A stretch of 63,603 nt of DNA, the filler included, from Babesia bigemina (Eukaryota): assembly GCF_000981445.1 (NCBI RefSeq). It is 10 parts of 10 records of this genome, joined end to end, with 100 filler letters (N's around TTAATTAATTAA, not from the genome) between each part and the next. Parts side by side here need not be neighbours in the genome. Positions count along the whole stretch, not along the records: positions 13,389 to 20,363 come from NW_012236957.1; 9 more parts are not named here. One strand, 5' to 3'. The notes under the pieces were generated by a model. That model was not told where the DNA came from and made no database searches. It saw nothing but the letters and a program-made list of their open reading frames with translations. Position numbers and translations under genes: made by a program. Each line of letters starts with the position of its first letter. The first letter of the stretch is position 1. Of this stretch, positions 5,549 through 59,021 are shown piece after piece.

Positions 5549-5853
5549 CACCCCGTCACACAGCCTGTCAAGGTCAGAGTACACAATCCCACTGCCGTCG
5601 TAGCCTTTTGACTCAGGGTTGAAGCCTAGGAAGGTCTCGAGACCAGTGCAGAGGTTATTAAGGATGATAGTAGGCTTATTATTTGAGGTGTTTTTAGCGT
5701 TTTAAATTTTGTCAAATTTCTTGCCAAGCTCCCTAGGCGGCACATGGTCAGGGCAGTGGCAAGAGGTGGAAGAGGGGAAGTGAAGGGTGACAAGGCACAA
5801 GTCATTATTATGGTTTAAGGAGGTCATAGCGTTAATATGGCGAGGTAAATCGA
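5549..5853 (-). other. Conserved cassette leader: ATG 5827 in frame with ORF, TAA at codon 42 (5702-5704)
   Basis: Manual translation MTSLNHNNDLCLVTLHFPSSTSCHCPDHVPPRELGKKFDKI*NAKNTS...GIVYSD. Confidence 0.85.
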
Positions 5854-6340: not shown

Positions 6341-6440
6341 NNNNNNNNNNNNNNNNNNNNNNNNNNNNNNNNNNNNNNNNNNNNTTAATTAATTAANNNN
6401 NNNNNNNNNNNNNNNNNNNNNNNNNNNNNNNNNNNNNNNN
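6341..6440. other. Artificial assembly linker (N44-TTAATTAATTAA-N44)
   Basis: Same 100-bp spacer with six-frame stops at 13289-13388, 20364-20463, 27501-27600, 34641-34740, 41818-41917, 49080-49179, 56355-56454, 58922-59021. Confidence 0.99.
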
Positions 6441-6890: not shown

Positions 6891-7194
6891 CGAATTACCT
6901 CGCCATATTACCCCTATGACCTCTATAAACCATCCTAATAACTTGTGCCTTGTCACCCTTCACTTCCCTCCTTCCACCGCTTGCCACTGCCCTGACCATG
7001 TGCCGCCTAGGGAGCTTGACAAGAAATTTGACTAAATTTTGAACCTATAAAACACCTTTAATAATAACCCTACTAACATCCTTACTAATCTCTGCTCTGG
7101 CCTTCAGACTTTCCTCGGCTTCAACTCTGAGTCAAAAGGCTACACTGGCCAGGGGATTGTCTACTCTGACCTTGACAGGCTGTGTGATGCAGTG
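6888..7194 (+). other. Conserved cassette leader: ATG 6916 in frame, TAA at codons 40 (7033) and 45 (7048)
   Basis: MTSINHPNNLCLVTLHFPPSTACHCPDHVPPRELDKKFD*ILNL*NTF...GIVYSD. Confidence 0.85.
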
Positions 7195-10100
7195 ATGGGA
7201 TTTTTGAGTGGTGTGCTTGGTGCGGTGAAGGATGACAATAATGTAAAACACTACGTAAAAAACATTGAACCTAAGCTTAATGATGTTATTTTTAAATTAC
7301 ATGACAGTGTTGGTAAGGGTGCCAGTGCGTTTGGGCCTTGCCTTGTAGAGGTTGGCCGGTGGTTGCATTATTATGATGAGCATGTTAGCAGACGTACCGA
7401 TTACATTAAGACTCATCTAGATAGTCTCGAAAACGAGATAACGCAAAATCAAAATGTCTTCAACACTGAGAAAACAAATAGCCTCGACAAGCAATACGCT
7501 GATTGGGATCGCCGCGCCAAGCTGTATGTGAGTAAGGTGGAAGAGGCTGAAAAGGCAACCAAGAAATTGGATCCAGAACTTCAGCAAATGTTAGAAAAAC
7601 CGATGAGATTAATCAAACAAAGTATTGAACAGTTTAAAAAAATCTGTGAAAATAGAGATTTGGATATTCTGTATGGTGCTGCAGCGGATGAGTTGGCGAA
7701 GCTGAAGGGGAGTGTGGAAAAGCATATCACAGAAAGAATTAAAACATTGGAACAACGTTTATTAAAAACTTTTGAAAAGAATATTCAAGGTGATATTAAC
7801 GATATTAGGAAGGATTTAATCGCTATCGATTCAGATCTGGGCGGTTGGATAACAGTGGCACAGGATATTGTGGAAAATGCTATATTGAAGTGTAATAAAG
7901 TATTGGCAATGGTGAATGAAAATCATGAGAAATACAAACTTTCGAAAAGTGGTCCCGAAATTCTTGTTAAAGCTAAATTATTACACGATAAAGCCATTGA
8001 CCTGAGGGCGGCAGCAGTAGCAGCCAGAGATGCTGTCAAAGAGAACGTCACTAACGCGTTGAAGACTGTCGTCGAAATGAACGGAAAGCTTATGGCCGAT
8101 CTGAATGATATGAAAAGTCATATTTACAATGCCGTTGAAGCTTATGTTAAGAAGACTCTGTTAACTGATGTAAAATCTAAGGTTAGTCAGATTCTAAATG
8201 GCCACCAATCGAATGGTATAAAGCAAATTATAGAGCACGTGAAAGAGCATGCTGCAAAATTTAAGAACTCTGCGACGTTTGGAGATATGGTTCAAGCATG
8301 GGTATGCGAGATATTGCAGGAGAACAAGGATATTGTGAAAAGTAGGCTTGAGACTTATGTTACGCAAACTAAGCTACAGTTCACAAACCGGGAATATCAG
8401 AATCAAGAGAAAGATAAAATTAACGACAAATTCAGGCAGGAGATTGCGAAAGTGATTATGAGTCATCTTGAGAGAGAAGTCTATAGTACGGGCAATGTAA
8501 CATTCGTTGGTGAGTCTACTGGTAAATTCGCAAAGGATTTGCAAACCGTTCAAGCAACTTGCAAACAATTTGCTATGCAGCTTGATAAGAAGGTTAATGC
8601 TGACATATATAGTGAGTTCTTCGACAGCGTAACTAGGGCCATTGAAGAGAAGTTGACAGGTAAGCAACACGGCAACTCGGATCTCCACACAGCCGTCTAC
8701 TACATCCTCAAAGCTCTCCCAAAGAAAGTCCGAGATGCTTCCACGGAACTGAATTTGTTGGTCCGTGACGGCGTCAAACAGGCCAATCTTGGAAACGTGG
8801 AGACGTCCTTTAGTGTTGCGGAAGCAATTAACACCGCATTAGGAGAGGCTGTAGCCACTAGCACGTTATCATCCAATGCGAAACATCCATATGACGTGGA
8901 TAATAAAATTCACGGCGTATTGAACGACAACATTGGGATGAGTACTAAAGGTGTAGCCGTTGACATAACGCACAAGAATTCCATTTTGCAGGGATATAAG
9001 GGGCACGTGTCTCAATCACCAAAGAGCACAACTGCTACGTCAGACATTCCAGAACCAATAGACGGCGCTCTTCCACAGGCGATCAAAGGCGTTAGAGACA
9101 TTGGTCTTCATAGCCTCACAACTGGTGGAGATATCACTAACATCCTAGACTCCGCAAATCACATCTTCGAGCAAGCGTTCGCCGAAATAAAAAAACAGCT
9201 CAAAGGTCTGACAAAGTTGGTTGGTGATGAGGGGCATGTTTTGGAAAGTGAGAAGGGTATCAGAACACTTTTAAATGATTTGAAAAAATTGCTTGGAACG
9301 GGTAGCTATAACGTTTGGGATGTTTTTATCAATTCTCTAGGGAAACTCCACCAGCGCATGAATCGTATCATTGGTGCTAGCGTGGCAAAATTAATCGGAA
9401 AAGCTGCAAATTTCCATGATGTCACTATCCCACAGCAAACGACGCATACTACGAAGGATGTTTTGAATGCTGTTGAAACTCATGTTACTTCGGCTACCAC
9501 CAGCATTGCAATCATAGCGCAAGAATTGTATGCTGATAGGAAAAGAAAAGGGCTTGATGATTTGAAATTACTCTGTGCAACCGAAATCGGTGGCATTGAT
9601 GTTATAATTAAGAGCCATTTCGAATGTGGAATGAAGGGTTTGATACGTCACGTGAAATACGGAATTTCACAATTTTCGAATCTTCCACCATCTCTAAGCG
9701 TACCACATTTGTCATCAAAAATTGCAGACTTCGGAGACATAGTATTAATTTACGTTGGACAGCAGGTTGAAACATCAGATAAGTCTGCAACCTCCCCCCC
9801 AACCACCGACCAACCCACCGACCCAGCCAAACAGCTAACCAAAATCAAAGATGCCTTCGACGAATTGCTTGGACATCTTCATACTCATGAAAATAATCGT
9901 AAATACATCTATGATCATCCTTTCACCGTTAAACTCACCACCCTCAAAAACGCCACTAACGATTTATCCCCCTCCGCCTTCGCCAACCCCCGGCACCCGG
10001 AGCTGCTCGATGCGGTCAGAGCGGGGCTGCAGGGGTTTGTCGAGGAGATGGAGCGGGTGTATGTGAACGGGTATGATGATGGAAACAAAATTAATTGGGA

Positions 10101-12306
10101 TACGAACAAATTGGTCGAACCTAAGTCCGATTCTGAAAATTCTGGTCAAAACGATAAATTAACGCCTTACGGTGAAAAGTTGTCGAAGGTGTTCCTTAGC
10201 ACAATCCAAGTACTATTCCAAGACCTCTGGGAGTTATATAAAGAATGCGCCGAAAATAAAAGTGAACGCATTCGTTTACATAATAAAAGCAAGGATGGCG
10301 TTAAGTTGCCCAATGCACTTGGCGCTTTCTTAGCTAAGCGAGGGTACAAGGTACCAACGGAGGAAGACAAGCAGGACGGGGAGTTGCAGAACAAGGACAA
10401 AATCATGACAGGTGAAAAAATTAAGGAGTTATTTGAGAAGAAGTTAAAATTGCCGGCGATTGCCCTACTTGCAATTAAAGGACCTAGCATACTCAGTGCC
10501 TTATACGAGTACCTCAAAAAGTATTACGAGGTCTGTCACCTGCAGGTTCGACCTTCAACGAAATATCCAGCGAACAGTTATCAGATGCTACAGTGGCTTG
10601 CCGGTCTGCGGTGGAATCCAGTATTTTTGCCAGTGAGGAAATATTTCAGGGAATTATTCCCTATACCTGACAAATTCAAGAACACGCCGCGCGAGAAAAT
10701 TCGCACCGATGACCTTAACCTTGCTGCGACCTCAAACATCAAGGCTCAGCAATTAGCCAGCAAAATGTTGCCAAATGTTTGCTTGCACGCCCACTCGGTT
10801 CTGACTGCCATCCTCGGACATGGACACGCAGGCGGATGTTACGCAGTTGACTACAACACCAACGCGGAAAACTTATTGTACCCTAGCAGAGACAGTGACT
10901 GCTTCGATTTACTCGCAGATATATTAGAAAGATTGTATCACCAGTTCCGATTCCTATGCAGTCAGTGCGAGAACGGCCCTGAGAGCGGTGGATGGGCTGA
11001 TTGTTTGTACGGTAGGCATGTCGCTGGATCAGACTGGCAGTGTAATGAGAAGCAGTGTCCTAACCAATTATGCGACCAAACGGTGAACCAAACACGTAAC
11101 CAAATTCATGAGCAAACGGGTGACCAACACCCCAAGTGCGGTGTGAAATCGCCACTCCAATCGTACCTAGAGGACGGCCTACAAGGTTTCCTGCCACACC
11201 AGTTCAAAAAGCCAGGTTGCAAGCTGGACTGCAGTATGACTAATCACCGCGGCCTACCGTGCAAGACACCAATGGGTTTCGCTGATATCAGTGTAACCGC
11301 TTCTCACACGAAAACGGGCGCTGATCTCATAGAAGTGTTAAAAAATTTCTGTGGTGAAAGATCCCACCTCCGCTCATTATGCGCTTGCATTATATGTCTT
11401 ATGCAAAAACCTCCGCAGACGCTAGGTGACATGTTCGCGTTCTATTATAATTATATATACGGCTGGACCACGCAGGATAGAGAACATAGAGAGGGCGCAT
11501 TTAACAAAGCCGTCAGCGCAGCGCACTTCGAGAACAAATATGATGAGCTCAAAGTGCATAACCTATTTTCCCCTAGTCACTCCGCAGTGTGGCAGGGGCA
11601 TTCGAGCGGTAGTCTCGGCAGTTTCGTATGCACATCAAGAGAATCGGTCGTATGTGGGCCATATCTGTATCCCATCAATAGCGGAATCAGAAATATATAT
11701 GCAGCTAAATATGCCGATAAATACCTATCATGGATTGTTTACCAGACTGAGACATTCTACAATTTACTCAAAAAGTTATATGACGAGTGCAACTCTAACT
11801 GCGGTCCAAAGGGATCCAACTGCTTAACCACATGCTGTGTTGAGGAATGTCCAAGGCTTATAAAACCGCCAACCCCAAAGGAACATCATAGCGATTGTAA
11901 ATCTATAGTCCAATGCAGAAAAGCACTACCAACTTTGTCAAAATACGGGTTCGTGTTTTTGCAGCAAGCCAAGTTAAACGGGAATGAAGGACTCGAGAAA
12001 AAACGCACGTGTCAAAATTTCTGTGCGGCATTCAAAGATGTATTTAATAAGGAGTCTATACTTGTCGAACTTATTAAAAAAATTGATGAATTCATATTTG
12101 CCATCAGGCAGCCGTTTATATGGCTCAATGTCGCGCTCTGGTCACTGTCCCTCTTCTACCTCATCTGCGTAATGGTTGGCAGACTGGATGTGCTCCACAT
12201 ACGCTCACACCTTAGGATACCGGCATCGCACAAGATTACAGCGCAGTCATTGTTGGCTGCAGCGCAAGTCGGAAGGCTTGCCAAAATATCGTATCTACAA
12301 CCGTAA
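7195..12306 (+). CDS. ves1: ves1-like variant surface antigen, copy 2 (B-type tail)
   Basis: 1703 aa from ATG 7195; Cys-rich C-half (KCGVKSPLQSYLEDGL), TM, LDVLHIRSH...AKISYLQP. Confidence 0.8.
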   Translation: MGFLSGVLGAVKDDNNVKHYVKNIEPKLNDVIFKLHDSVGKGASAFGPCLVEVGRWLHYYDEHVSRRTDYIKTHLDSLENEITQNQNVFNTEKTNSLDKQYADWDRRAKLYVSKVEEAEKATKKLDPELQQMLEKPMRLIKQSIEQFKKICENRDLDILYGAAADELAKLKGSVEKHITERIKTLEQRLLKTFEKNIQGDINDIRKDLIAIDSDLGGWITVAQDIVENAILKCNKVLAMVNENHEKYKLSKSGPEILVKAKLLHDKAIDLRAAAVAARDAVKENVTNALKTVVEMNGKLMADLNDMKSHIYNAVEAYVKKTLLTDVKSKVSQILNGHQSNGIKQIIEHVKEHAAKFKNSATFGDMVQAWVCEILQENKDIVKSRLETYVTQTKLQFTNREYQNQEKDKINDKFRQEIAKVIMSHLEREVYSTGNVTFVGESTGKFAKDLQTVQATCKQFAMQLDKKVNADIYSEFFDSVTRAIEEKLTGKQHGNSDLHTAVYYILKALPKKVRDASTELNLLVRDGVKQANLGNVETSFSVAEAINTALGEAVATSTLSSNAKHPYDVDNKIHGVLNDNIGMSTKGVAVDITHKNSILQGYKGHVSQSPKSTTATSDIPEPIDGALPQAIKGVRDIGLHSLTTGGDITNILDSANHIFEQAFAEIKKQLKGLTKLVGDEGHVLESEKGIRTLLNDLKKLLGTGSYNVWDVFINSLGKLHQRMNRIIGASVAKLIGKAANFHDVTIPQQTTHTTKDVLNAVETHVTSATTSIAIIAQELYADRKRKGLDDLKLLCATEIGGIDVIIKSHFECGMKGLIRHVKYGISQFSNLPPSLSVPHLSSKIADFGDIVLIYVGQQVETSDKSATSPPTTDQPTDPAKQLTKIKDAFDELLGHLHTHENNRKYIYDHPFTVKLTTLKNATNDLSPSAFANPRHPELLDAVRAGLQGFVEEMERVYVNGYDDGNKINWDTNKLVEPKSDSENSGQNDKLTPYGEKLSKVFLSTIQVLFQDLWELYKECAENKSERIRLHNKSKDGVKLPNALGAFLAKRGYKVPTEEDKQDGELQNKDKIMTGEKIKELFEKKLKLPAIALLAIKGPSILSALYEYLKKYYEVCHLQVRPSTKYPANSYQMLQWLAGLRWNPVFLPVRKYFRELFPIPDKFKNTPREKIRTDDLNLAATSNIKAQQLASKMLPNVCLHAHSVLTAILGHGHAGGCYAVDYNTNAENLLYPSRDSDCFDLLADILERLYHQFRFLCSQCENGPESGGWADCLYGRHVAGSDWQCNEKQCPNQLCDQTVNQTRNQIHEQTGDQHPKCGVKSPLQSYLEDGLQGFLPHQFKKPGCKLDCSMTNHRGLPCKTPMGFADISVTASHTKTGADLIEVLKNFCGERSHLRSLCACIICLMQKPPQTLGDMFAFYYNYIYGWTTQDREHREGAFNKAVSAAHFENKYDELKVHNLFSPSHSAVWQGHSSGSLGSFVCTSRESVVCGPYLYPINSGIRNIYAAKYADKYLSWIVYQTETFYNLLKKLYDECNSNCGPKGSNCLTTCCVEECPRLIKPPTPKEHHSDCKSIVQCRKALPTLSKYGFVFLQQAKLNGNEGLEKKRTCQNFCAAFKDVFNKESILVELIKKIDEFIFAIRQPFIWLNVALWSLSLFYLICVMVGRLDVLHIRSHLRIPASHKITAQSLLAAAQVGRLAKISYLQP

Positions 12307-12447: not shown

Positions 12448-12805
12448 ATGCAACGTGCTAAGCTAGCACCCAGGCTAAGTGTTCACCTAGCACCCAGGCA
12501 AAGTGCTAACCTAGCAACCAGGCAAAGTGCTAAGCTGGTAACCAGGCAAAGTGCTAAGTTGGCAGCCAGGCAAAGTGTTGACCTAGCACCTAGGCAAAGT
12601 GGTAAGCTAGCAGCCGGGCAAAGTGGTAAGCTAGCACCCAGGCAAAGTGCTAACCTAGCACCCAGGCTAAGAGGTAAGCTGGCAACCAGGCAACGTGCTA
12701 ACCTAGCACCCAGGCAAAGTGCTAAGCTAGCACACAGGCAACGTGCTAAGCTAGCAACCAGGCAAAGTGTTAACCTAGCACACGGGCAAAGTGGTAAGCT
12801 ATCAC
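12448..12805. repeat. 24-bp minisatellite R24 (AGGCAAAGTGCTAAGCTAGCACCC variants)
   Basis: 24-nt period, seen as the 8-aa RQSAKLAP repeat in the ORF track. Confidence 0.95.
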
Positions 12806-12818
12806 CTGACCAAGTTGA

Positions 12819-14727: not shown

Positions 14728-14786
14728 TGCAATCATTACTGTCTACAACATTAGGTGTCAGTTGTCAGTTAGGTGATCATGGTTAT

Positions 14787-15257
14787 TCAGCTGCGCAGTA
14801 GATACCGCACCCTGTGGAACGGCCGGATGCGGAAGTAGATCATGACGCAGATGACGACAATGACGAGGGTGACGGGGGTGATGATGTAAGGGAGGGGATT
14901 AAAATTGGATGACGTAGAGTCATCGGTAGAAGATGCTCGAAGAGAGACGCTGTCAGAGAGCTGTTGAGTGGAGATTTGAGACAGAGCGCCGGGGGCAGAA
15001 GCAACAAACCGTTCACCGGTGGAAGTACGAACATAGACAGCAGGGCGTTTTGCCACACAACAGTAACATTGACAGCTGGTGTCACATTTTTGACATCTCG
15101 AATGATCGCACAGCCATGCTCCACTCATGCGCGAAATTCGGAAACTGGCACATAGACGACAATATTTGTTACATCCCCTACAACACCATGAACAGCATTT
15201 ACAGTCACGCTTTGTACAGCTCTTGCCACACGTACACGGAGGAGTCCAATCACTCAT
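14787..15257 (-). CDS. Small Cys-rich single-pass membrane protein (156 aa from ATG 15257; possibly extended by upstream micro-exons)
   Basis: 18 Cys in residues 8-67, Ser-rich linker, hydrophobic YIITPVTLVIVVICVMIYF, basic tail RIRPFHRVRYLLRS; unique, non-repetitive DNA. Confidence 0.65.
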   Translation of the reverse strand: MSDWTPPCTCGKSCTKRDCKCCSWCCRGCNKYCRLCASFRISRMSGAWLCDHSRCQKCDTSCQCYCCVAKRPAVYVRTSTGERFVASAPGALSQISTQQLSDSVSLRASSTDDSTSSNFNPLPYIITPVTLVIVVICVMIYFRIRPFHRVRYLLRS

Positions 15258-15504
15258 CTTCCCACTCCCAGTCCCCTCAACCTGCAAACTTATCAATCAC
15301 CTAGCAACGCACTCACCAACTGCAACACTTACACTGCCGCTCCCAGTCCCCTCAACCTGCGAACATATCAATTACCTAAGCAGCACTCACCAACTGCAAC
15401 ACGTACCACTGCCGCTCCCACTCCCCTCAACCTGCGAACATATCAATTACCTAAGCAGCACTCACCAACTGCAACACTACCACTGCCACTCCCAGTCCCC
15501 TCAT
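15258..15504 (-). repeat. ~75-bp tandem repeat R76 with exon/intron-like unit
   Basis: Minus-strand GTGAGT...CAG segments at 15465-15432, 15390-15357, 15316-15282, separated by 41- and 40-nt blocks starting GTTGAGGGG. Confidence 0.85.
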
Positions 15505-16002
15505 GAACACGTACCCTCACCCCTGTGTCCCCCCAGCCCGGGCCACCGACACCCACGCTGCCCAGGATACCACAGCTGCGGCTGACGCGACGCATGTGAC
15601 TAGCATCAACTGTCACTCTAAATTATTCACTATTCGCAACGCCATCAACATTGCGGCGACCCGTGCGCTCATCTCCCACAGTGCAGCAGCACCGTGCTAC
15701 GAGCCGCGGTATCGGCGCCATGCTGGCGGAGCGCGTCGGCTACGTGCCTAAATGTGATATTAACAATCGCTACATTGCCGCCTATAAACGCTACTTAACC
15801 AGGCCAACGCGGATTACGCCACTCTGCCAGTGACTCGCAACACACGACTTAGGTCACCCGCCGCGGCCCTCACGACCGCCTACGTTAGCGACCAATCACC
15901 CAGCCTCACGTGACACTGACTCAATGGGCAACGCGGACACCTCTCACAGTCAACGCCCAACTCAACGCACCAGGCAATCAACGTGCTACAACACCTACCA
16001 AA
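15505..16002 (-). promoter_or_regulatory. Conserved ~500-bp GC-rich non-coding element (candidate promoter or ncRNA)
   Basis: Colinear, highly similar copy at 57703-58198 (+) in the same context; function inferred only. Confidence 0.4.
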
Positions 16003-16390
16003 TCACGGTTCATCTGCCAGCTTTGCACGTTGCCTGGTTGCTAGGTTAGCACTTAGCATGGATGCTAGCTTAACACGTTGCCTGTGTGCTCGCTTAGCAC
16101 TTTGCCTGTGTGCCAGCTTACCACGTTGCCTGGGTGCTAGCTTAGCACTTTGCTTGTGTGCCAGGTTAGCACTTTGCCTGGTTGCTAGGTCAACACGTTG
16201 CCTGGGTGCCAGCTTAGCACTTTGCCTGCGTGCTTGCTTAGCACTTTGCCTGGTTGCTACCTTACCACTTTGCCTGGGTGCTAGCTTACCACGTTGCCTG
16301 GGTGCTAGCTTAGCACTTTGCCTGGTTGCCAGCTTTGCACTCTGCCTGGTTGCTAGCTTACCACTTTGCCTGGGTGCTAGATCAACACAT
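16003..16390. repeat. R24 minisatellite (minus orientation)
   Basis: GCACTTTGCCTGGGTGCTAGCTTA tandem units. Confidence 0.95.
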
Positions 16391-16542: not shown

Positions 16543-19500
16543 TTACGGCTGTAGATACGATATCTTGGCAAGCCTTCCGACTTGCGCTGCCGCCAACAAT
16601 GATTGCGCCGTTATCTTGTGCGACGACGGTATCCTCAGGTGTGAGCGGATATGGAGCAGATCCAGTCTGCCAACCATTACGCAAAGGAGGTAGAAGAGGG
16701 ATAGTGACCAGAGTGCGATGTTAAGCCAGATGAAGGGTGCGCGGATCGTGAAGATGAATTCGTCGCACTTTTGGAGGAGCGTTTTGAAGTAGTTGGAATT
16801 TAATAACGCTTTCAGTTGCGTGACGAAATTCGCGCAATTCTTTACGCTGTCCGTACGCATCAGAGCTTGCGCATCTCCTAATGTGAACCCGTATCTGTAG
16901 AATGTAGGCGCAACGCCACGACAGCCTACAATTGTGTTGCACTTACAGTTCGCTTCCTTACCATGGGAGCCCGGCTTACATGGGCATCCTCTGCAACAGA
17001 AGCTTCCGCAATCAATCTGTTGGAAGGCATCGAGCAATGCTTTCAGGTAACTGTAGAATGTCCACGGTAGATATATAGCCCATGACAAGTAAGTGTCGCT
17101 GTGCTTGTGAGCGAGGTAATTGTACGCATCGTGACACGTCGATTGGAGATACGGGCCGCACTGAACATCCAGACCTGAACACGTCGCGTTTCTCGATAAG
17201 CTGGCCAGATCGGTGTATGCAGCTACATGACCCTGAGCGCTATGAGAGCTACTGCTGCTGCCATATGCATCACGAAGTGTATTTGTGAACTTGCTGCGGC
17301 TCTCAATAAGCCTGATCGACAGTTTGTCAATGGATGTTTCGATGCATGATTGCAAGTCATTTTCCTTGGTCGACCCACCGTACTGCCAGTCCTTGACAAG
17401 TGACGAAGCAAAACTGAAATGCTCAGCCAAAGTAGACGGCGGCTTCGGTACGAGGCAGAGAACCGATGAAATTAAGCCGGTACCGAAGAAAGTATTTATC
17501 ATGTCATATATATCCTTCCCCGTTTTCGCCGATCCGGAAAATCCCCTGAAGCCCATGGGTGTCAGGCAGGGCATTCCGGGCTTGTTCCGTGGACAATTGC
17601 TGCATACCGATCTACAGCCGATGGATGTCACGCGGTGGGGAAGGTGGCCGACCAAGCTATCGTTCAGGTAGGACTGAAGGGGCGAAGTTGGTCGGCACGT
17701 TGGTTTACCATTTGCTTGACAGTTTGCCTGGCACTTTGCTTCGTCGCTTGGGTGGTCGGTACATGGCCAATTACTTGGCGGTACACCCTTGCCGTACTGG
17801 CAGTTGGCCCAGCCGCTGTACTTATCATTCAAGACACACTGCGTCTGCAGGTACCTGAGAGCCGGCAAGAGCCTCCATAGCACGTCGAGCAGCATCTGGA
17901 AGCAATCTTCGCCGGATGACGGATATCTCAGCCTCAGAGAGTTATTGCATAAATCGCTGCCATACGTAGTGTCGGCGTCACCGTGCCCAGCTACGGTGGT
18001 GAGTATGCCGTACGATTTCGAGCAGACGTGGTCGATGGCCTTGATGACCTTGTTGAACGTGATGTCATATGGCTGCGCTTTTATGGGCGAATCACCTACT
18101 AAAGTGCCGGAGATCTCCCCGTCCGTTACTTGCTTGTCCGGATTCTCGAATAGCTCAGTGATTGTTGCGTGTCGCATGACCGAATTGGCAGCGGTATAAG
18201 GTAGACCGGTGAGCCATACGAGCATCTCGTATACGCTGCAAGGTGACTTGGATGAGGAGGAAGCGATGTGGCAGACCTCGTTGTACTCCTCGAAGTGATG
18301 GTAAATGCACTTGAGTATGTCGAAGATGTTAATGATATTTGTCAGTTTGTCTCTATTCTGTAGGCACGTTTTAAGGTGCTCGATTTTATCGGCATTCTTA
18401 ATTCTGAATGTAAGGCTGTTAGCGATGTACTCCCCTGTAATTAGGGACGTATCGTGTAATTCGCCATTTTGCTTGCCGTCGTCCGATACTGTGAAGCCAA
18501 GCTCGGCAAAGTGTCTACCGACGTCCGTGGATTTGTTGATTTGCTGCTTGGTCAGAGACTTGCAATTGTGCTTCAATATGGTCAACGAACTCAGAAGCGT
18601 GCATAGCAAAGTGAGGAATACCTTCGCGCACTTCCGGCCGTGATCTGTCAGATGGGTTAGCTTCTTTGTCTGTCCGGCATCATCTGTCTTAGTCTCTTCC
18701 GTGCACAGTAAACCTTCAAACGTTACACTATCATATGCTGAGATGTAAACTTCTCTAAGTTCGTCAACGTATTTGCCGACACCGCTGACCATGACGTCCA
18801 AGACGGGTGTTGTTACGGTCGCGAAGTCTTGTGGTTTTAGGTCAACAAGTGCGCCAGAGATGCCATCGAGCAGCGCTGGAACATGGCAGTCAAACCTGCT
18901 ATTGCGGCTAAGGTGAATGAGTAACTCGTTGAGTGCATCGTATATGGTCGACAACTTGCGGGGATAATCATGTGCAGGCGTGCCGGATGGATTCTTCTCT
19001 TTCTCGTAATCGTAGACCTTAAGCACCTGTTTGTTGACATATAGGTGGAGGTTATTGTAGAACTCTTTGAATTTCTGCGAAAGATTTGCGAATGCTGTTT
19101 TCTTATTGTCCGGTGAATCGACGGAATCAGATGCACGACTGCTAAGCTTGTTAATATTTTCTCCAGTAGTTTCACCTTCTGTAACTTCACCCTCGACAGC
19201 TTTCATGAACCCTTTGAAGCCAACCTTCAAATCCTCGTCGATGAGTTTAGGCAATGGTGACAGTTCGTCTTGCGCTTTGTCAGCGAAGGCCTGGAGCAGC
19301 GATTTTATGGAGTCGACGTACTGCTGACGGGCGTGGGAGGTGAGGGCTTTTTCGGCGTCTTTAATATCATTTTCGACCTGTTCCTTGAGTATCTTACTAA
19401 AGTGTTGTTCGGCTTGCTCGGCGAACTTTAGAAACTCTTCGGCGTCATGGATAGGGCCGACTTTGATTTCGTTGTGGAGGTCGTCGAGCTGACTGTAGAT

Positions 19501-20363
19501 TTTCAGTATGCTGTTTTTAGCTTCTGTTGATTTTACGAAATACTCATTTTTCAGCTGAGTGAGAGACTTCTTAGCGTAATACGCGTTGTTGCCGACGGTG
19601 CTGCAGAGTTGCATGAGTAGGTTGGTAACCTGCGGAACCTGGATGTGGAGTTTTTGCAGTTCACTCTGGATATGCGCGAGGCCTTGGACGTCGGTGTGCT
19701 TCTCTTTTATATCGGAGGTGAGGTTAACAGTAGAAACTTGACCAAGCATACTTGTAATATCATTCAGGTAGTTGTTCACGCCGTTCTTCTGGCCATCACC
19801 CGGTGCTGGACCCGGATCCTTTTTTTCGCTGTCAATCAGCCCGGCGATTTCTTTGAGTTTGGAGGTGATTTGGGAGAAGGGGGCGGTGAAAGTATTTTGC
19901 TCATCTATTTCTGATCCAAGATTATTTTCTTTAAGCTTGTCCGTCACTTGCGTTTCAATATTACCGATCGCCTTGGGGAGGGAGCCTTCAGCGGAGGTGC
20001 CTTCTAGAGCACCACCCATTTTAGTTTGATCGACGTAACCGTTATACTGTTTAAACGTTGTTTTTGTTTCGAGCGTAACTTTGCTATCACTATCTGCGGG
20101 AAAATGTTTTTTTAGCTCTTCAGTCACCCCCGTGATCGAGGTGTCGACGGCGGTGGCGGCGCTTTCTTCGCCTGATCCCCTGGCGAGCGCTTGTCCCAAT
20201 TTTTCTTCAAGCTGTTCAGCTGCATTGGACGCTGCAGCCAATTCATCAATTTTGGAATCAGTAATAAAGGTTTTTATCTCCGTCGCCGCTTTTTCGGTAG
20301 CCTGTTTGAGGGTGTCGACGATGATATGAATCGCACTTTCCAAATGATATTTGGCTGTCTCAT
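16543..20363 (-). CDS. ves1: ves1-like antigen, copy 3, 5'-partial (B-type tail)
   Basis: Frame open to the gap at 20363; conserved Cys-rich half and AKISYLQP tail. Confidence 0.8.
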
Positions 20364-20463
20364 NNNNNNNNNNNNNNNNNNNNNNNNNNNNNNNNNNNNN
20401 NNNNNNNTTAATTAATTAANNNNNNNNNNNNNNNNNNNNNNNNNNNNNNNNNNNNNNNNNNNN

Positions 20464-20810: not shown

Positions 20811-23800
20811 CTTGCTGATACTGACCATTCTCTCAGTGACGATGCTACTAGAAGAGCCTTGAATGACATTGACTCCAAGCTCATTAGCCTTGGTCACCTT
20901 GCTGGACAGCTTGGCGGATTTGTTGGTCAAAGTGAGAGTGTTAAGAAAGCCGTTGTGAAGGCTATTAAAGCTGTTTTCGACACTAATCCAGACCTTAAAA
21001 ATGACCTAAAACATCTTTACTCTTCTCATGTTACTACCCTTTCTGAGTCTGTCAACTCTGCTGGCAAGGCTGATGGCACCGTTGAAATTGGTCAACTAAA
21101 GCAGAAAGTTGAAAATGAAATTAAGAATTTTACAGATCAATATAATAGCCTTAATGAACCTAATAACCTTCCTAATAACTCTCCTCCTTCCCCCTCGCCC
21201 TCTGCTGAGTCAGACAAATTGCAGTCCAAGTTGGAGGCTTTGAAGAAAGTGAAGGAGCTTTGTGGATTTTTGACTAATTCTAAAAATGCGTCAAATGACC
21301 CTAAAAACCTCTTAGATAATTTATGTGACGGCCTTCAGACTTTCCTCGGCTTCAACTCTGCTACGAAAGGCTACACTGGCGAGGGGATTGTGTACTCTGA
21401 CTTGGACAGGCTGTGTGACGGGGTGATGGGATTTTTGAGTGGTGTTCTTGAGGCGGTGAAAGATGAAAATGAAGTGACAACTTATGATAAATACATACAG
21501 CCAGAGAGTAAAAGGCTTCAAAATGTACTAGACACCTTAAATAAAAATATTGGCACCGGGCGTGATGGGCTTGCGGCGTCTGTCGGCGCGGTGAAGGGGT
21601 GGTTGGGGAAATATAATTCACAAGTTGAGACATTGACTAAGAATGTTACTTCAAAATTAGGTACGTTAAGTACTAAATTATCATCTGATACAGGTGAATA
21701 CTACAAGCAAGTTAACGACAAGAATGACCTGAGTGCGCAGTTGACGATGTGGACCGGGACGCTTGGACGTATCTCAAGTGATCTCCAAGACATACAAAAC
21801 AAACAGATTAATATATTAGATAAGAGACTAAAAGCAGATGTTTTGCATGAAATTAAGCCGATTAATAAATCGGTTGAGTTTTTGCTTGAGTCGGGTAACA
21901 ACAGTGAGTTCAAGGGAAAGGTGGAGCAGGCAGTTGCGAAATTCCGTGAGACCCGTAAAAGTGCTGATCAAGGAGTGGAAGAATGTGTTCAAAAGGTTAC
22001 TGCAGGTTTGAACAAAAAGATTATGGAACTTCTACAGCAGCATACTGAAACCATCAAAAGCACCGAGTTGTACGTCATTGGCAAAATAGACGATGTGCTA
22101 TCTAAAGCGGAGAAGCGAAGTATAACACACATGGAGGCACTCGATGCGGAGTATAAACATAAAATCAAGGAGGCGCACAGTGCCTTGGCAAATGCTCTGA
22201 AGACGCTTCAGAATGGCGCAACTAAAGCAAATGATTTGCATAATGCGATCGAAAAATTACAGGAGAAGTTTCATAAGTTGCAGGGTCACGAGTCAGGCAT
22301 CGGTACAGTTGTCGATACGGAGAGGGATATTAAAGGCATGTTATTTAAATTTGTGGAGGAGGGAGAAAAGTTAAAGAAAACTATTGAAGAGAATATCAGG
22401 CAACCGTTGCATAAATGGCATGATGCCAATAAAGATAAGATGCCTGGTGGGCTTCATCAACTAGGGACTGACGTTGACACTAATATCACCACTTTTAGTT
22501 CGAATTATCCAGCAGTGCATAGTGCCCTGAAACAAATTAAAATGATAGTTCAGCCTATAGAAAACGTGTTGGCCGTCCGCATGAAAAATGTGCTGCCACA
22601 ATCGGACCTTGAAGATTTGTTGGAGCAAGTAAGAATGGAATTGAAAGCATATGCCGGCGCACTTATTGTAGATATGGAGAGTCTCAGAGATAGTTTAGAT
22701 AAAGAATTGAAAGGCTATATTAACAAATTGATGGGCGGTGGCGCGTATGCTGATATAGTGGCGAGATTCGTAAAAACTGTTTTGGACAGCGTTATCGACA
22801 CAATGAGTACCAAGCAAGCAGACGAATCGCATATGGCAAAGCAATTAAAAACACAGCATTCGCAAATGACAATTCCACAAACTCAAATGAAGTTTGACGA
22901 GATTATGACACATTTCAGAGGCGTAGATGTACGAATTACGACTGCTATATCCAAACTGAGTGATAAAGTCAAATTACTTAATCATCATTCAAAATCTACG
23001 AACGAGAATGACCAACAGCTTTCACACCTCACAACAAACTTGCCAAAATCCATGGAACAGGTCAAGAACAAAATAACTGAGGTCATTCAATTGGTAAATA
23101 GCACCAACAGTGGTCTGGTAGGGGCAGTCGCCAGTGCTAAAAAGCTCATTGACGATTTCAACAATGATCGTAAGACCACTTTATCCAATAAATTCGAAGG
23201 TTTAAAATCGGAAATTAGAGCGTTAAGTATGGAATCCGTAAGAAGCGCACTTGACTCAGCCATTGCGGGTGTTAATAAGAAGCTTGAAGATCTGAAGAAG
23301 GTTCCTACTACTATAGAAGACGAAGGCAAATACAGTCTTGCTGTACGAAAAAGCAAATTAATTGAATATATCATTAATCTTAAATCTGACATCATAGGGA
23401 CGATAACAGTGAATATGTCTGAAATAAAGGAGACACTCAACCGTTCCCTCATTAAGTCCGAGAAAGACGCTATCAATCACATCAGACAGCTTGCGGAAAC
23501 GTATAAAAGGAAACTCGAGGATGGTATTAACGCGGTAGAACAACAGATTCAATTGATGTTTGCGGAACAACATAAAGCAGATCTGACGGCTCTACAAAAA
23601 CTGATCGAGCATCAAAAAGCTGAAATTCAAAACATCATCGACAAGGACAGAGCCAGCGGTATCAAGTGCCTGCTCTGGTACATGAATCAAAATCACAATA
23701 CACTTACGGAACTTACCGGCATACAAGAGTCAAAATGGGCAGCAGATAAAATTAGACATTACTTACATCCCCTCTTTACCTACATCATCTCCCAAACCAA

Positions 23801-26297
23801 CCCCTCCTCCCAACTGGTCACCGACCTCCAAGCCCGCACTTACGCCCTCCTCACCCACCTCCACGCGAACAATCGCACCTTCACCTTCGACTCCGGTTTC
23901 CGCTCCCGCCTCCACAACCTGACCACCTATCTCTCCACGTTCAACCCCGCTGCCTTTGCGAACCCGCACCACCCGCAACTCCTGGACGCGCTGAAGGCAG
24001 GGATGCAAGGGCTGGTAGCGGAGATGCAGAAGGCGTATGTTAATAGGTATGACGGACATCCTGAGATGAAGTGGACGACACCGAACAAGGAGAAAGTTGA
24101 CGAACCAACCGACGACGCTACGCGCTGCGCCAAGGTGTTTATGAGCTGCCTGCCGATGTGGGTGGAGGACCTCGGGGAGTTGAAGAGGAGGTGCCAGCAT
24201 AGTTGGAGCAAGAAGGCTATACATCATAAAGATGAAATTGACAAAGAAAACCCCCTTGGTGAGTTCCTCAAGCAGTGCGGTTACCGTGTTCCTAGCAGTC
24301 AGAAGTCGCATCAGGACGGGGAGCTGCAGTGCAGACATACGTTCACTGGCAAACATATCGATGGAATTCTCGGTAAGATCATACAAATGTCGAATCTAGA
24401 ACACGTTCCGCAGTGTAGATCACGGGAGAAAGAATGGAACTTTAATATCATGGATTTCATAGCATGCCTCTACAGTCACCTCGACGAGTATAACGAAGTA
24501 TGTCATCTATCAACGTTATTCTCCAAAAGGCATCCGTGCAGTATATACGAAATACTCTGCTGGTTCTCAGGGCTCCCTCATAGTACCGTATATTCAGCGT
24601 TACCTGGCGGCATCACCAAGCTGCTTGATAAGCCTGAGAATCAACCGATAGATAGCGGTGACTCGGGAATTGAAATTGAGTTCGATGATGAAAACGCGTA
24701 CTACCTGGATGCGCATCCACATAAGTTCACATATAAAGATATCTATGCTGTGATTGAACTAATTTGCTCCAAATCATACGACGTGTTGGCTAGAATCGCC
24801 GGCACAGGTGATGAGCACACCAGGTACGCCTGCGAATACGCAAACAATTCCCTCAAGCTGCATTACCCTAAGACGGCGGACGACTGCTTGCCAATGTTAC
24901 TTGACATGTTACGTAGATTGCTCTCCGTGTTCCGATTCCTCGAATCCAAGTGTAGTTATTCGGCCGTGGAGTTCGGTTGGGCGGACTGCCAGTACGGTAA
25001 AAATGTGCCTACGACCAAATCGCATTGTAACGACAGATCAACGGAGGAAGTAACGTGCCAGGCAAAGTGTAAACCAAAGTGCCAACCAAACAGTCAACCA
25101 AACAGTCAACCAAATTGCCAGCCAACCTCTCCGTTGATGAGTTACTTAAATGACTGTTTGCCGGGTCACTTGCCTCATCAACTCACGAATGTCGGTTGTA
25201 AATCTGAATGTAAAACGTGCCCCGGTAATAAGCCTGGAATGCCCTGCTTAACCCCCCTTGGATTCAGAGGCTTCTCAGGGTCAATTAAAACGGGTGAACA
25301 ATTATGCAGCATTATTAAAGAGATATTAGGCAACGGTATGATTGCGTGTCTATTCACCCTCGCACCCAGGCCTCCAACTAACTTGCCGGAGCACTTCCAG
25401 TTTGCAGTGTCACTTGCCAAGGGACTTAGTGCTTCAAAGCAGAGTAAGGTTGACGGCATTAAAACATTGGCAGACACCATCGCAGATTCAATTACCGATC
25501 GCTCCATCAATCTGTATGAAAATACGGATGAACTTATCGATCCGATTTGCAAAGCTTATGGTAATAAAGGTATAGAGCATCGCAACCAGAAGCGTGATGC
25601 AAAACATAACGTGTCGTGCATTTCACTGACCACTTCCTGCATCAATCAGGAGCATTGCGTCCCTTACCTATCTCCCCTGAGCTGTGACACTTATAATTAC
25701 CTTGTCAACAAGCAATCGAACTCCTACCTATCATGGGCAGTTTACTTGCCGTGGACATTCCATAAATATCTTGCAAGTCTCCTCGACGCGTTTAAGGCTA
25801 TAAGATGTGAAGACTGGGGATGCAGGAACTGCTTGCATACCGATATATGCAAGGGAGAGAGTCATGGTATGCTTAATCCAAAAGGACCTGAAGGAGGATG
25901 CCAATGCGCTTCTGTTGTACATTGCAACGGCGTATCGCCAACGTTATACCAATATGGTTTCACATTCAGGGATGCGCAAAATTTGATATCGTTGAACAGA
26001 AACTGCTTCAATATGCGAAGTCACCTGTACAATGTTGTTAACTCTGACTATTTCACTGACCTATTTAAACAATGCGACATGTTACTGTGGAGAATCAGAG
26101 AACCCTTCTCCTACCTTGTCTTGGCCCTCTGGCTCCTCTCTTTGTTGTACCTCCTCCACATCATGGTCATCCGCCTCGACGTGCTCCACATCAAATCGCA
26201 TTTGCATAGTCCATCATCGCATCGCATCGCTGCTCAATCACTACTCGCCGCTGCACGTGTTAACAAACTGGGCAGGGTGTTTTATCTGCAACCATAA
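20811..26297 (+). CDS. ves1: ves1-like antigen, copy 4 (A-type tail); no ATG for the first ~205 codons, leader ATG out of frame
   Basis: Frame open from 20811 (LADTDHSLSDDATRRALNDIDSKLISLGHLAGQLGGFVG); first ATG 21426; leader ATG 20785 stops after 25 codons. Confidence 0.78.
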   Translation, partial: LADTDHSLSDDATRRALNDIDSKLISLGHLAGQLGGFVGQSESVKKAVVKAIKAVFDTNPDLKNDLKHLYSSHVTTLSESVNSAGKADGTVEIGQLKQKVENEIKNFTDQYNSLNEPNNLPNNSPPSPSPSAESDKLQSKLEALKKVKELCGFLTNSKNASNDPKNLLDNLCDGLQTFLGFNSATKGYTGEGIVYSDLDRLCDGVMGFLSGVLEAVKDENEVTTYDKYIQPESKRLQNVLDTLNKNIGTGRDGLAASVGAVKGWLGKYNSQVETLTKNVTSKLGTLSTKLSSDTGEYYKQVNDKNDLSAQLTMWTGTLGRISSDLQDIQNKQINILDKRLKADVLHEIKPINKSVEFLLESGNNSEFKGKVEQAVAKFRETRKSADQGVEECVQKVTAGLNKKIMELLQQHTETIKSTELYVIGKIDDVLSKAEKRSITHMEALDAEYKHKIKEAHSALANALKTLQNGATKANDLHNAIEKLQEKFHKLQGHESGIGTVVDTERDIKGMLFKFVEEGEKLKKTIEENIRQPLHKWHDANKDKMPGGLHQLGTDVDTNITTFSSNYPAVHSALKQIKMIVQPIENVLAVRMKNVLPQSDLEDLLEQVRMELKAYAGALIVDMESLRDSLDKELKGYINKLMGGGAYADIVARFVKTVLDSVIDTMSTKQADESHMAKQLKTQHSQMTIPQTQMKFDEIMTHFRGVDVRITTAISKLSDKVKLLNHHSKSTNENDQQLSHLTTNLPKSMEQVKNKITEVIQLVNSTNSGLVGAVASAKKLIDDFNNDRKTTLSNKFEGLKSEIRALSMESVRSALDSAIAGVNKKLEDLKKVPTTIEDEGKYSLAVRKSKLIEYIINLKSDIIGTITVNMSEIKETLNRSLIKSEKDAINHIRQLAETYKRKLEDGINAVEQQIQLMFAEQHKADLTALQKLIEHQKAEIQNIIDKDRASGIKCLLWYMNQNHNTLTELTGIQESKWAADKIRHYLHPLFTYIISQTNPSSQLVTDLQARTYALLTHLHANNRTFTFDSGFRSRLHNLTTYLSTFNPAAFANPHHPQLLDALKAGMQGLVAEMQKAYVNRYDGHPEMKWTTPNKEKVDEPTDDATRCAKVFMSCLPMWVEDLGELKRRCQHSWSKKAIHHKDEIDKENPLGEFLKQCGYRVPSSQKSHQDGELQCRHTFTGKHIDGILGKIIQMSNLEHVPQCRSREKEWNFNIMDFIACLYSHLDEYNEVCHLSTLFSKRHPCSIYEILCWFSGLPHSTVYSALPGGITKLLDKPENQPIDSGDSGIEIEFDDENAYYLDAHPHKFTYKDIYAVIELICSKSYDVLARIAGTGDEHTRYACEYANNSLKLHYPKTADDCLPMLLDMLRRLLSVFRFLESKCSYSAVEFGWADCQYGKNVPTTKSHCNDRSTEEVTCQAKCKPKCQPNSQPNSQPNCQPTSPLMSYLNDCLPGHLPHQLTNVGCKSECKTCPGNKPGMPCLTPLGFRGFSGSIKTGEQLCSIIKEILGNGMIACLFTLAPRPPTNLPEHFQFAVSLAKGLSASKQSKVDGIKTLADTIADSITDRSINLYENTDELIDPICKAYGNKGIEHRNQKRDAKHNVSCISLTTSCINQEHCVPYLSPLSCDTYNYLVNKQSNSYLSWAVYLPWTFHKYLASLLDAFKAIRCEDWGCRNCLHTDICKGESHGMLNPKGPEGGCQCASVVHCNGVSPTLYQYGFTFRDAQNLISLNRNCFNMRSHLYNVVNSDYFTDLFKQCDMLLWRIREPFSYLVLALWLLSLLYLLHIMVIRLDVLHIKSHLHSPSSHRIAAQSLLAAARVNKLGRVFYLQP

Positions 26298-28380: not shown

Positions 28381-28441
28381 CTCGAATTACCTTGCCATAA
28401 TACCGCTATGACCTTCTTACACCATTATAATAACTTGTGCC

Positions 28442-57357: not shown

Positions 57358-57702
57358 ATGCAACGTGTCTACCTAACAACCAGGCAAAGTGTTAACCTAG
57401 CACACAGGCAAAGTGCTAAGCTAGCATCCAGGCAAAGTGGTAAGCAAGCAACCAGGCAACGTGCTAAGCAAGCAACCAGGCAACGTGCTAAGCAAGCACC
57501 CAGGCAAAGTGTTAACCTAGCACCCAGGCAAAGTGCTAAGCTAGCACCCAGGCACAGTGCTAAGCTAGCACTCAGGCAACGTGATAAGCTGGCACACAGG
57601 CAAAGTGCTAAGCTGGCACCCAGGCGAAGTGCTAACCTAGCACCCAGGCAAAGTGTTGGCCTAGCAACCGGGCAACGTGGTAAGCTGGCGGATGAACCGT
57701 AA
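57358..57702. repeat. R24 minisatellite
   Basis: 24-nt units. Confidence 0.95.
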
Positions 57703-58198
57703 TTTGGTGGGTGCGTTAAGACGTTGATTGCCTGTTGCGTTGAGTCACGCGTTGGCTGTGAGAGGTGTCCGCGTTGCCCATTGAGTGAGTGTCAGGTGAG
57801 GCTAGGTGATTGGTCGCTAACGTAGGCGGTCGTGAGGGCCGCGGCGGGTGACCCAAGTCGTGTGTTGCGAGTCACCGGCAGGGTGGAGTTATCCGCGTCG
57901 GCCTGGTTAAGTAGCGTTTATAGGCGGCGATGTAGCGATTGTTAATATCACATTTAGGCACTTAGCCGACCCGCTGCGCCAGCATGGCGTCGATACCGCG
58001 GCTCGTAGAACGGTGCTGCTGCACTGTGGGAGTTGAGCGCACGGGTCGCTGCAATTTTTATGGCGTTGCGAATGATAAATAATTTAAGTGGCTGTTGGTG
58101 CCAATCACATGCGTCGCGTCAGGGAAGCTGTGGTATCCTGGGCAGCGTGGGTGTCGGTAGCCTGGGCTGGGGGAACACAGGGGTGAGGGTAGGTGTTG
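57703..58198 (+). promoter_or_regulatory. Second copy of the conserved ~500-bp GC-rich non-coding element
   Basis: Colinear with the reverse complement of 15505-16002. Confidence 0.4.
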
Positions 58199-58671
58199 AT
58201 GAGGGGACTGGGAGCGGCAGTGGTACGTGTTGCAGTTGGTGAGTGCGTTGCTGGGTGATTGATATGTCAGCAGGTTGAGGGGAGTGGGAGCGGCAGTGGT
58301 ACGCGTTGCAGTTGGTGAGTGCTGCTTGAGTGATTGATATGTCTGCAGGTTGAGGGGACTGGGAGCGGCAGTGGCACGTGTTGCAGTTGGTGAGTGCGTT
58401 GCTAGGTGATTGACATGTTCGCAGGTTGAGGGTACTGGGAGCGGCAGTGGCACGTGTTGCAGTTGGTGAGTGTTTGCATAGGTGATTGATATGTTTGCAG
58501 GCTGAGAGACTGGGAGCGGCAGTGGTACGTGTTGCAGTTGGTGAGTGCGTTGTTTGAGTGATTGATATGTTTGCAGGTTGAGGGGAGTGGGAGCGGCAGT
58601 GGTAGTGTTGCAGTTGGTGAGTGCTGCTTGAGTGATTGATGCTTGCAGGTTGAGGGGACTGGGAGCGGCAG
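58199..58671 (+). repeat. R76 exon/intron-like tandem repeat, about 6 units
   Basis: Units restart after CAG at 58274, 58349, 58425, 58501, 58577, 58649; each has TTG|GTGAGT...TGAT/TGAC...GCAG. Confidence 0.88.
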
Positions 58672-58921: not shown

Positions 58922-59021
58922 NNNNNNNNNNNNNNNNNNNNNNNNNNNNNNNNNNNNNNNNNNNNTTAATTAATTAANNNNNNNNNNNNNNNNNNNNNNN
59001 NNNNNNNNNNNNNNNNNNNNN

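What the first reader, a model, noticed from the sequence alone, without database searches (positions are those of the whole stretch)
14787..15504. Small 18-Cys membrane protein gene behind a tandem array of micro-exon/intron units
Seen (minus strand): ATG 15504 opens a 39-nt block MRGLGVAVVVLQL, followed by 34/34/35-nt GTGAGT...CAG segments alternating with 41- and 40-nt blocks, then VEGTGSGK-MSDWTPPCTC... Splicing block 1 directly to the last block is in frame and gives a signal-peptide-like MRGLGVAVVVLQLVEG, Cys-rich domain, Ser linker, TM and basic tail. Including both middle blocks keeps the frame (81 nt) but meets a TAA that overlaps an alternative GTAAGT donor. Known: Babesia introns are typically very short, and VESA1 has Cys/Lys-rich domains. 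Inference: a ves-associated small surface or metal-binding protein whose N-terminus or expression is set by alternative splicing and repeat number.
Basis: partly seen in the sequence, partly recalled or inferred. Interest (0 to 1): 0.78.

Follow-up and report, generated by a model that had tools for sequence, protein, structure and literature searches.

The report
Unnamed Babesia mini-antigen family, intron-repeat leader
This is one copy of an apparently unnamed family of at least 35 small, variable, cysteine-rich membrane-protein genes lying beside the big surface-antigen genes of the cattle parasite Babesia bigemina; it likely makes a surface antigen, and the tiny repeated introns in front of it likely sit in the untranslated leader rather than coding for a signal peptide.

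Summary
The anatomy is confirmed: three 34/34/35-nt GTGAGT..GCAG segments alternate with 39/41/40-nt blocks, ahead of an open block with 18 ectodomain Cys, a Ser/Thr linker, one hydrophobic helix and an Arg-rich tail. Searches give 36 relatives, 35 of them annotated B. bigemina hypothetical proteins, many next to ves1b-sized genes. There is no Pfam, PDB, VESA1 or other-species match. Paralogue peptides place a conserved ATG 23-30 nt after the last acceptor, and in 17 of 21 scorable paralogues that ATG lies in the frame closed by a TGA at the start of the block. The coding region is therefore likely one exon from 15257 (156 aa, no signal peptide), and the array a spliced 5' leader of variable unit number (3 here, 6 in a second window copy lacking the coding exon). 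Best reading: a miniature VESA-like, C-terminally anchored variant antigen. Splicing, expression and location are untested; 0 of 19 members were found in a published proteome. It is not ves1, ves2 or smORF by the tests run. Interest 0.55.

The parts
14787..15257 (-). Likely coding exon: 156-aa protein from the ATG at 15257, with no N-terminal hydrophobic stretch
   Evidence: Open frame. The ATG follows GGGAAG and is conserved in paralogues. Five annotated paralogues start at the matching Met.
15057..15236 (-). Cys-rich variable domain, residues 8-67, 18 Cys
   Evidence: Cys positions. Spacing is kept in paralogues (alignments). 17-20 Cys before the helix in 7 of 7 full-length paralogues counted.
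14838..14894 (-). Predicted single membrane helix, residues 122-140, followed by a 16-aa tail with 5 Arg
   Evidence: Kyte-Doolittle 19-residue mean 2.6. It is the only confidently modelled part in AlphaFold2 and the most conserved part of the family.
15466..15504 (-). Leader block 1 (39 nt), with an upstream ATG in weak context (T at -3)
   Evidence: The ATG is also present in the second copy (58199).
15432..15465 (-). Candidate intron 1, 34 nt
   Evidence: Splicing not shown.
15391..15431 (-). Leader block 2 (41 nt)
15357..15390 (-). Candidate intron 2, 34 nt, identical to intron 1
15317..15356 (-). Leader block 3 (40 nt), carrying the TAA and the unshared GTAAGT
15282..15316 (-). Candidate intron 3, 35 nt
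15258..15281 (-). Last leader stretch (24 nt) from acceptor to ATG; 23-30 nt in paralogues
15505..16045 (-). Unique upstream region shared with the second cassette; likely promoter and transcript start
   Evidence: About 90% identical to 57660-58198. Function inferred.
16015..16380 (.). 24-bp tandem repeat between the ves1-type gene and the cassette
   Evidence: The same repeat lies at 12450-12806 and 57373-57686.
16543..20415 (-). Upstream, co-oriented ves1-type gene (likely ves1b class); its 5' part falls in an assembly gap
   Evidence: It has a degenerate ves motif (motif described in PMC6630957).
14743..14810 (-). Candidate 68-nt intron overlapping the stop codon; some paralogue models use it to reach a second membrane segment, which is absent here
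   Evidence: Matching peptide in P0017, P0020 and P0024.
57660..58671 (+). Second cassette: same upstream region and a 6-unit array, running straight into the 20-bp repeat with no coding exon
   Evidence: It may be a deletion or an assembly collapse (gap at 58922).

Best explanation
The locus is one member of a B. bigemina family of 35 or more small Cys-rich, single-membrane-helix protein genes lying beside ves1-type genes; it likely starts at the ATG at 15257 and likely encodes a miniature variant antigen, predicted to be anchored by its C-terminal helix with the Cys domain facing out of the cell, while the exon-intron repeats in front likely form a spliced, untranslated leader. Shown by sequence: the open frame, the array, family membership, conserved Cys spacing, helix and tail, and variable unit number. 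Inferred from paralogue peptides: the start codon and the non-coding nature of the array. Inferred by analogy with VESA1 (no signal peptide, C-terminal helix, short tail; PMC6630957): entry into the secretory route through the helix, disulphide bonding, display to the host and diversification by recombination. The leader, with a weak upstream ATG whose frame stops before the main ATG in the fully spliced form, would tune translation. Split odds: real protein-coding family 0.85; array is 5' leader 0.75; host-facing variant antigen 0.6.
For: Family: 17 of 21 candidates, 28 of 7995 scored and 32 among 1.84 billion representatives; 36 distinct proteins, 35 named B. bigemina. Cys spacing survives 30-46% identity with indels. 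Start codon: three different annotated frames (Lys-Met, Glu-Asp-x, Arg-Trp/Cys) converge on one ATG at 29 nt (12 proteins) or 23 nt (5) after the acceptor. The frames split 17 TGA-closed, 3 in frame with the block and 1 in the third frame, of 21 scorable among 28. Three more read by eye are also in the TGA-closed frame. That ATG has A at -3; the block-1 ATG has T. Intron halves diverge about twice as fast as exon halves, with invariant splice signals. Leader peptides appear in 25 of 36 proteins, so the array travels with the gene. Ten family locus tags have a 180-256 kDa neighbour within one or two tags, two of them labelled BbigVes1b. Arg-rich tail and acidic N-side of the helix. Two related tail types plus hybrids point to recombination.
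Against: There is no transcript, junction or protein evidence. 0 of 19 tested family tags are in the 459-row PR proteome table, although that search used BOND models, many mis-framed, for a different strain. 0 of 18 tags are in a 3,721-gene RNA-seq table, but three abundant ves genes used as controls are missing too. The start-codon argument rests on annotated peptides from ab initio models, not on paralogue DNA. Only 6 of 36 models show the whole N-half Cys motif and 21 of 36 the C-half; the rest are mis-framed or truly deleted, which I cannot separate. This copy is one of the few where the ATG is in frame with the block. The second window cassette has no coding exon. Topology comes from hydropathy and charge only. 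A helix 16 residues from the C-terminus also fits a tail-anchored protein with a cytosolic N-terminus.
Confidence: 0.55

Rival explanations
1. The gene structure is the same, but the protein is tail-anchored with the Cys domain in the parasite cytosol, binding zinc or copper like a metallothionein or small zinc finger.
For: CC, CxC and CxxC clusters. No signal peptide from 15257. Helix within 16 residues of the C-terminus with a basic tail. Odd Cys counts in 2 of 7 paralogues.
Against: 35 divergent copies with indels between cysteines, restricted to one species and sited beside variant-antigen genes, fit host-driven variation better than metal housekeeping. No Pfam metal-binding family matched. 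No His is conserved in the domain.
Confidence: 0.15
2. One reading: alternative splicing of the micro-exons chooses the N-terminus, and skipping to block 1 adds a signal peptide.
For: In this copy block 1 joined to the last block is in frame and has an 11-residue hydrophobic run (mean 2.75). A second in-frame form exists through the GTAAGT donor. The block-1 ATG is in both window copies and begins 3 annotated models.
Against: 17 of 21 paralogues have the main ATG in the TGA-closed frame. 12 of 13 enumerated splice patterns stop early. It needs double skipping of near-identical exons. The hydrophobicity follows from a GT-rich repeat and is broken in copy 2. GTAAGT is in 1 of 9 units.
Confidence: 0.12
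3. The cassette is mostly silent: a mobile repeat-flanked module or a store of gene fragments carried along with ves1b copies, seldom or never translated.
For: No proteome hit (0 of 19). The second copy has no coding exon. Several models lack the Cys domain. The neighbouring ves ORFs look 5'-truncated.
Against: The open frame, conservative substitutions in the helix and Cys spacing kept at 30-46% identity point to selection on the protein, at least historically. A shared 540-nt upstream region is kept at about 90%.
Confidence: 0.18

Closest known systems
VESA1 (ves1alpha/beta of B. bovis; ves1a/ves1b of B. bigemina)
   Same: Multi-copy and variable. No N-terminal signal peptide, Cys-rich segments, C-terminal membrane helix with a short tail (PMC6630957, passages). 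Same genomic neighbourhoods.
   Different: About 17 kDa against more than 100 kDa. No conserved VESA C-terminal domain (HH probability 2.7%) and no ves motif. No hit to longer proteins. B. bigemina ves1 are reported to lack the Cys/Lys domain (PMC4066756, section 22).
smORF of B. bovis
   Same: Small variable genes interspersed with ves1 clusters (PMC2034396, passages); the niche is the same.
   Different: smORFs have a signal peptide (43 of 44) and are predicted extracellular. This family has a membrane helix, a Cys domain and likely no signal peptide. No smORF homologue is reported in B. bigemina and none was hit here.
ves2 of B. bigemina (BbigVes2)
   Same: Short, species-specific, placed near ves1.
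   Different: [quoted passage not shown] This family is anchored and shows no ves homology.
Signal-less single-helix exported proteins of Plasmodium (PNEPs such as REX2 and SBP1; recalled, not from a call)
   Same: Small, no signal peptide, one helix as the likely secretory entry.
   Different: No sequence link found. These are not Cys-rich variant families, by recall.

Membership tests
ves1 (VESA1) | Conserved VESA C-terminal domain | tested here: not met
   Profile comparison of 7 family sequences with 9 window ves C-termini: probability 2.7%, 19 columns.
ves1 (VESA1) | Large size (about 100 kDa or more) and the internal ves motif | tested here: not met
   156 aa. The motif is in 8 of 8 large window ORFs and not visible in the 156-aa protein.
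ves1 (VESA1) | C-terminal membrane helix, short tail, no signal peptide | tested here: met
   Hydropathy; holds if the start is 15257.
ves1 (VESA1) | Homology of the Cys domain to the B. bovis CKRD | tested here: inconclusive
   No longer protein scored (0 of 3708 candidates, a weak test by the tool's own note) or (one spurious repeat protein). No B. bovis VESA1 sequence was in hand for a direct comparison.
ves1 (VESA1) | Display on the infected red-cell surface | not testable with these tools
   Needs experiment.
ves2 (BbigVes2) | No membrane anchor; predicted signal peptide | tested here: not met
   A helix or tail motif is present in 34 of 36 proteins by pattern.
ves2 (BbigVes2) | Homology to the 5' 500 bp of ves1b | tested here: inconclusive
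   No Pfam or long-protein hit, but the window's ves ORFs lack a clear 5' end, so no direct comparison was made. Published ves lists returned no hit even for control tags.
smORF | Cleaved signal peptide, no membrane helix, homology to B. bovis smORF | tested here: not met
   Helix present; no B. bovis protein among the 36 hits.
smORF | Association with ves1 clusters | tested here: met
   Window layout; neighbouring locus tags in BOND.
Metallothionein / zinc-finger families | Match to a curated model | tested here: not met
   Pfam: 0 families for the window protein; only sub-threshold membrane or linker hits for 8 paralogues. PDB: 0 hits.
Spliceosomal introns (array segments) | GT-AG ends, invariant across units, faster interior change | tested here: met
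   9 of 9 units.
Spliceosomal introns (array segments) | Junction-spanning reads | not tested

The most novel reading that the evidence does not exclude
The array is a phase-variable translation switch built from introns. Every exon unit is open in two frames and closed by TGA in the third. The upstream ATG's reading frame therefore steps through the 40- and 41-nt units, and the number and mix of units decides whether it stops just before the main ATG (on), runs over it out of frame (off) or fuses to it (adds a signal peptide). Unequal crossing-over in the array would flip each copy of an undescribed surface-antigen family on or off. That family would supply, as a free-standing mini-protein, the variable Cys-rich module that B. 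bigemina VESA1 is reported to lack.
Probability: 0.1. Interest if true: 0.85.

Novelty: new variant of a known kind. Interest (0 to 1): 0.55.

Why it matters
Published descriptions of B. bigemina list ves1a, ves1b, ves1ba and ves2 at its variant-antigen loci and state that it has no smORF. An additional 35-member membrane-anchored family in the same loci would fill that gap and give new candidates for diagnostics, immunity studies and the question of what partners VESA1b, since VESA1a was not detected in the published proteome. The analysis also shows that most database models of these genes likely have the wrong N-terminus, which would hide them from proteomics and export predictions. A leader built of tandem exon-intron units with variable copy number is an unusual gene layout that one RT-PCR or RNA-seq look could test.

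Tried and rejected
No whole genome is held and no RNA reads were obtained, so splicing and expression remain open. Pfam and PDB sequences: nothing above threshold. AlphaFold2 on two alignments gave mean pLDDT 55.6 and 49.8; only the helix is confident, so no fold search was run. The ESM Atlas did not answer. Metagenome contigs held neither the repeat pattern (0 matches) nor relatives (25 pattern hits, 0 confirmed), so paralogue DNA and dN/dS were out of reach. Earlier findings of the scan: none. A visible likeness between the family's CCxWCC motif and a Cys motif in the ves1 C-terminus was tested and rejected. P0030, an unnamed 542-aa repeat protein matching only the helix region, was dropped from the family count. 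The RNA-seq table of PMC9806345 and the supplements of PMC5660447 and PMC9531838 were uninformative because control genes were absent too. No complex prediction was run: no specific partner is claimed.

Full report
Observation. The minus strand carries three 75-nt units, each a 39-41-nt block and a 34-35-nt GTGAGT..GCAG segment, then a block open for 164 codons to the stop at 14787. The protein has 18 Cys in residues 8-67 counted from the ATG at 15257, a Ser/Thr-rich linker, one hydrophobic stretch (residues 122-140, mean hydropathy 2.6) and a 16-residue tail with five Arg.

Setting. The window is a cluster of nine long ves1-type reading frames or fragments separated by 12-, 20-, 22- and 24-bp tandem repeats. 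All 8 long frames carry a degenerate form of the motif that a review gives as the mark of ves paralogues (PMC6630957, passages); by size they are likely ves1b, which is an inference. The finding lies 1 kb downstream of one of them, on the same strand, behind a 24-bp repeat. A second cassette at 57660-58671 (+) has the same position behind a ves 3' end, 90.5% identity over 788 nt and six units, but it passes directly into the 20-bp repeat with no coding block. The junction sits on a short word shared by the two repeats, so a deletion is plausible, but an assembly gap lies 250 nt away. A third ves gene has the same 24-bp repeat (12450-12806) and no cassette.

Family. A single-sequence search gave 17 hits of 21 candidates, a profile search 28 of 7995 scored, and the full scan of 1.84 billion representatives 32. 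Of 36 distinct proteins, 35 are annotated as hypothetical proteins of B. bigemina; the remaining one is an unnamed repeat protein that I dropped. No protein of another species was hit, and a search of longer proteins found none (a weak test). The window is therefore likely B. bigemina or its nearest kin, and its protein is not identical to any listed one. Members share the helix and tail closely and keep Cys spacing at 30-46% identity with indels. There are two related tail types: 23 proteins have type A only, 8 type B only and 3 both by pattern, with 2 unassigned. Hybrids between the types exist. In the BOND proteome table, proteins of 180-256 kDa lie within one or two locus tags of ten family members, two of them labelled BbigVes1b; only neighbours detected in that proteome are visible this way.

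Where translation starts. The database models come from ab initio prediction with manual improvement (PMC4066756, methods part 1) and read the last leader block in different frames, which turns out to be informative. Whether the model reads Lys-Met, Glu-Asp plus a G-starting codon, or Arg-Trp/Cys, the peptides fit one ATG after a purine run. Of 28 proteins examined, 21 could be scored. The ATG falls 29 nt (12 proteins) or 23 nt (5) after the acceptor, in the frame that begins with TGA; three others have it in frame with the block (27, 30 and 42 nt, the last likely spanning a predicted splice) and one in the third frame (28 nt). Three further proteins, read by eye, also fall in the TGA-closed frame. 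Five models begin at this Met. Two models read the whole Cys domain in a shifted frame and match the window's own shifted frame (40-44% identity). Because most copies cannot fuse any upstream block to the Cys domain, the array is most simply a 5' untranslated leader and the window protein begins at 15257. This is inferred from peptides, not from paralogue DNA.

Are the segments introns? Across the nine window units the first seven and last four intron bases are invariant, the interiors differ by 19% and vary from 32 to 36 nt, and the exon halves differ by 10%. This is the pattern expected of real introns with a constrained exon part. It rests on two loci that may be homogenised, and a loose donor-acceptor pattern also occurs 18 times elsewhere in the window. 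Splicing is not shown. With all three removed, the block-1 ATG opens a 35-codon frame that ends 36 nt before the main ATG; in copy 2 the equivalent frame has 14 codons. The block-1 ATG has T at -3 and the main ATG has A; that A at -3 favours initiation is recalled knowledge. Of 13 splice patterns enumerated, one reaches the C-terminus from block 1, and one more does so through the GTAAGT donor, which exists in 1 of 9 units.

How it likely works. The gene would be transcribed from the shared upstream region, the leader spliced, and a 17-kDa protein made from the strong ATG. With no signal peptide, the helix would serve as the membrane entry, as proposed for VESA1 (PMC6630957, passages). The Arg-rich tail would stay cytosolic and the Cys domain would face outward, disulphide-bonded on a flexible stalk. 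Copy number, variability and location argue for exposure to the host or tick. All of this is inference. The rivals are a tail-anchored cytosolic metal binder (0.15), a spliced signal peptide (0.12) and a largely silent module (0.18).

Results against. 0 of 19 tested family tags (of 27 tags known) appear in the published PR-strain proteome table, which does hold many ves proteins; mis-framed models, strain differences and small Cys-rich membrane peptides weaken this. 0 of 18 tags appear in a blood-versus-kinete RNA-seq table, but three abundant ves controls are absent as well. Structure prediction was uninformative. Only 6 of 36 models contain the full N-half Cys motif.

Comparison with known families. 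The family works like the ves-linked small variant genes (smORF, ves2) in position and like VESA1 in architecture, but it fails membership tests for each: no VESA C-terminal domain, a membrane helix that ves2 and smORF lack, and no cross-species hit. PMC4066756 (abstract, sections 20, 22 part 1, 23, methods part 1, passages, supplementary table S1 in part) names only ves1a, ves1b, ves1ba and ves2 and notes in general that other species-specific genes are often predicted to be surface-located. I found no description of this family in the paper searches, nor in passages of PMC10463595, PMC5660447, PMC10975891, PMC9531838, PMC9806345 or PMC2034396. The library lacks most subscription papers, and supplements I could not match by tag or did not open (the figure file of PMC4066756) may list these genes as a cluster.

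Verdict. A real and apparently undescribed species-specific gene family with an unusual intron-repeat leader. New variant of a known kind; interest 0.55, or 0.85 if the array proves to be a repeat-number switch (probability about 0.1).

Noticed in passing
window 57660-58671 (+): Second cassette with six exon-intron units and no coding exon, joined to the 20-bp repeat at a short shared word; a deletion or an assembly collapse.
   Followed up: partly
window 995-5701, 7051-12306, 20811-26297, 28412-33871, 35515-40836, 43159-48483, 50154-55502: Seven ves1-type frames begin shortly after a 22-bp repeat and a shared short leader, with the first in-frame Met 49-206 codons in. They look 5'-truncated and may be silent donor copies.
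   Followed up: partly
window 3' flanks of the ves genes, e.g. 946, 16498, 43108, 50105, 59994 (+) and 12391, 26348, 33894, 40887 (-): A GTGAGT..AG intron-like motif recurs on the antisense strand just downstream of nine ves stop codons; it could reflect antisense transcripts or chance in a shared flank.
   Followed up: no
window intergenic regions: A recurring order of tandem repeats (12-bp or 24-bp, then 20-bp, then 22-bp) separates successive ves genes; these are possible recombination or silencing elements.
   Followed up: no
window 12306, 16543, 57213: The three ves genes that share one variant of the membrane segment and tail are the three followed by the 24-bp repeat; two of them lead into the cassette.
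   Followed up: partly
window 14743-14810 (-) and proteins P0012, P0017, P0020, P0024: A candidate 68-nt intron over the stop codon leads, in some paralogue models, to a second membrane segment of tail type B, which suggests alternative tails or remnants of tandem copies.
   Followed up: partly
window, ten N-runs such as 6341-6440 and 58922-59021: Gaps are padded with a fixed 12-nt spacer between N-runs, so order and repeat lengths near them come from scaffolding and are uncertain.
   Followed up: no
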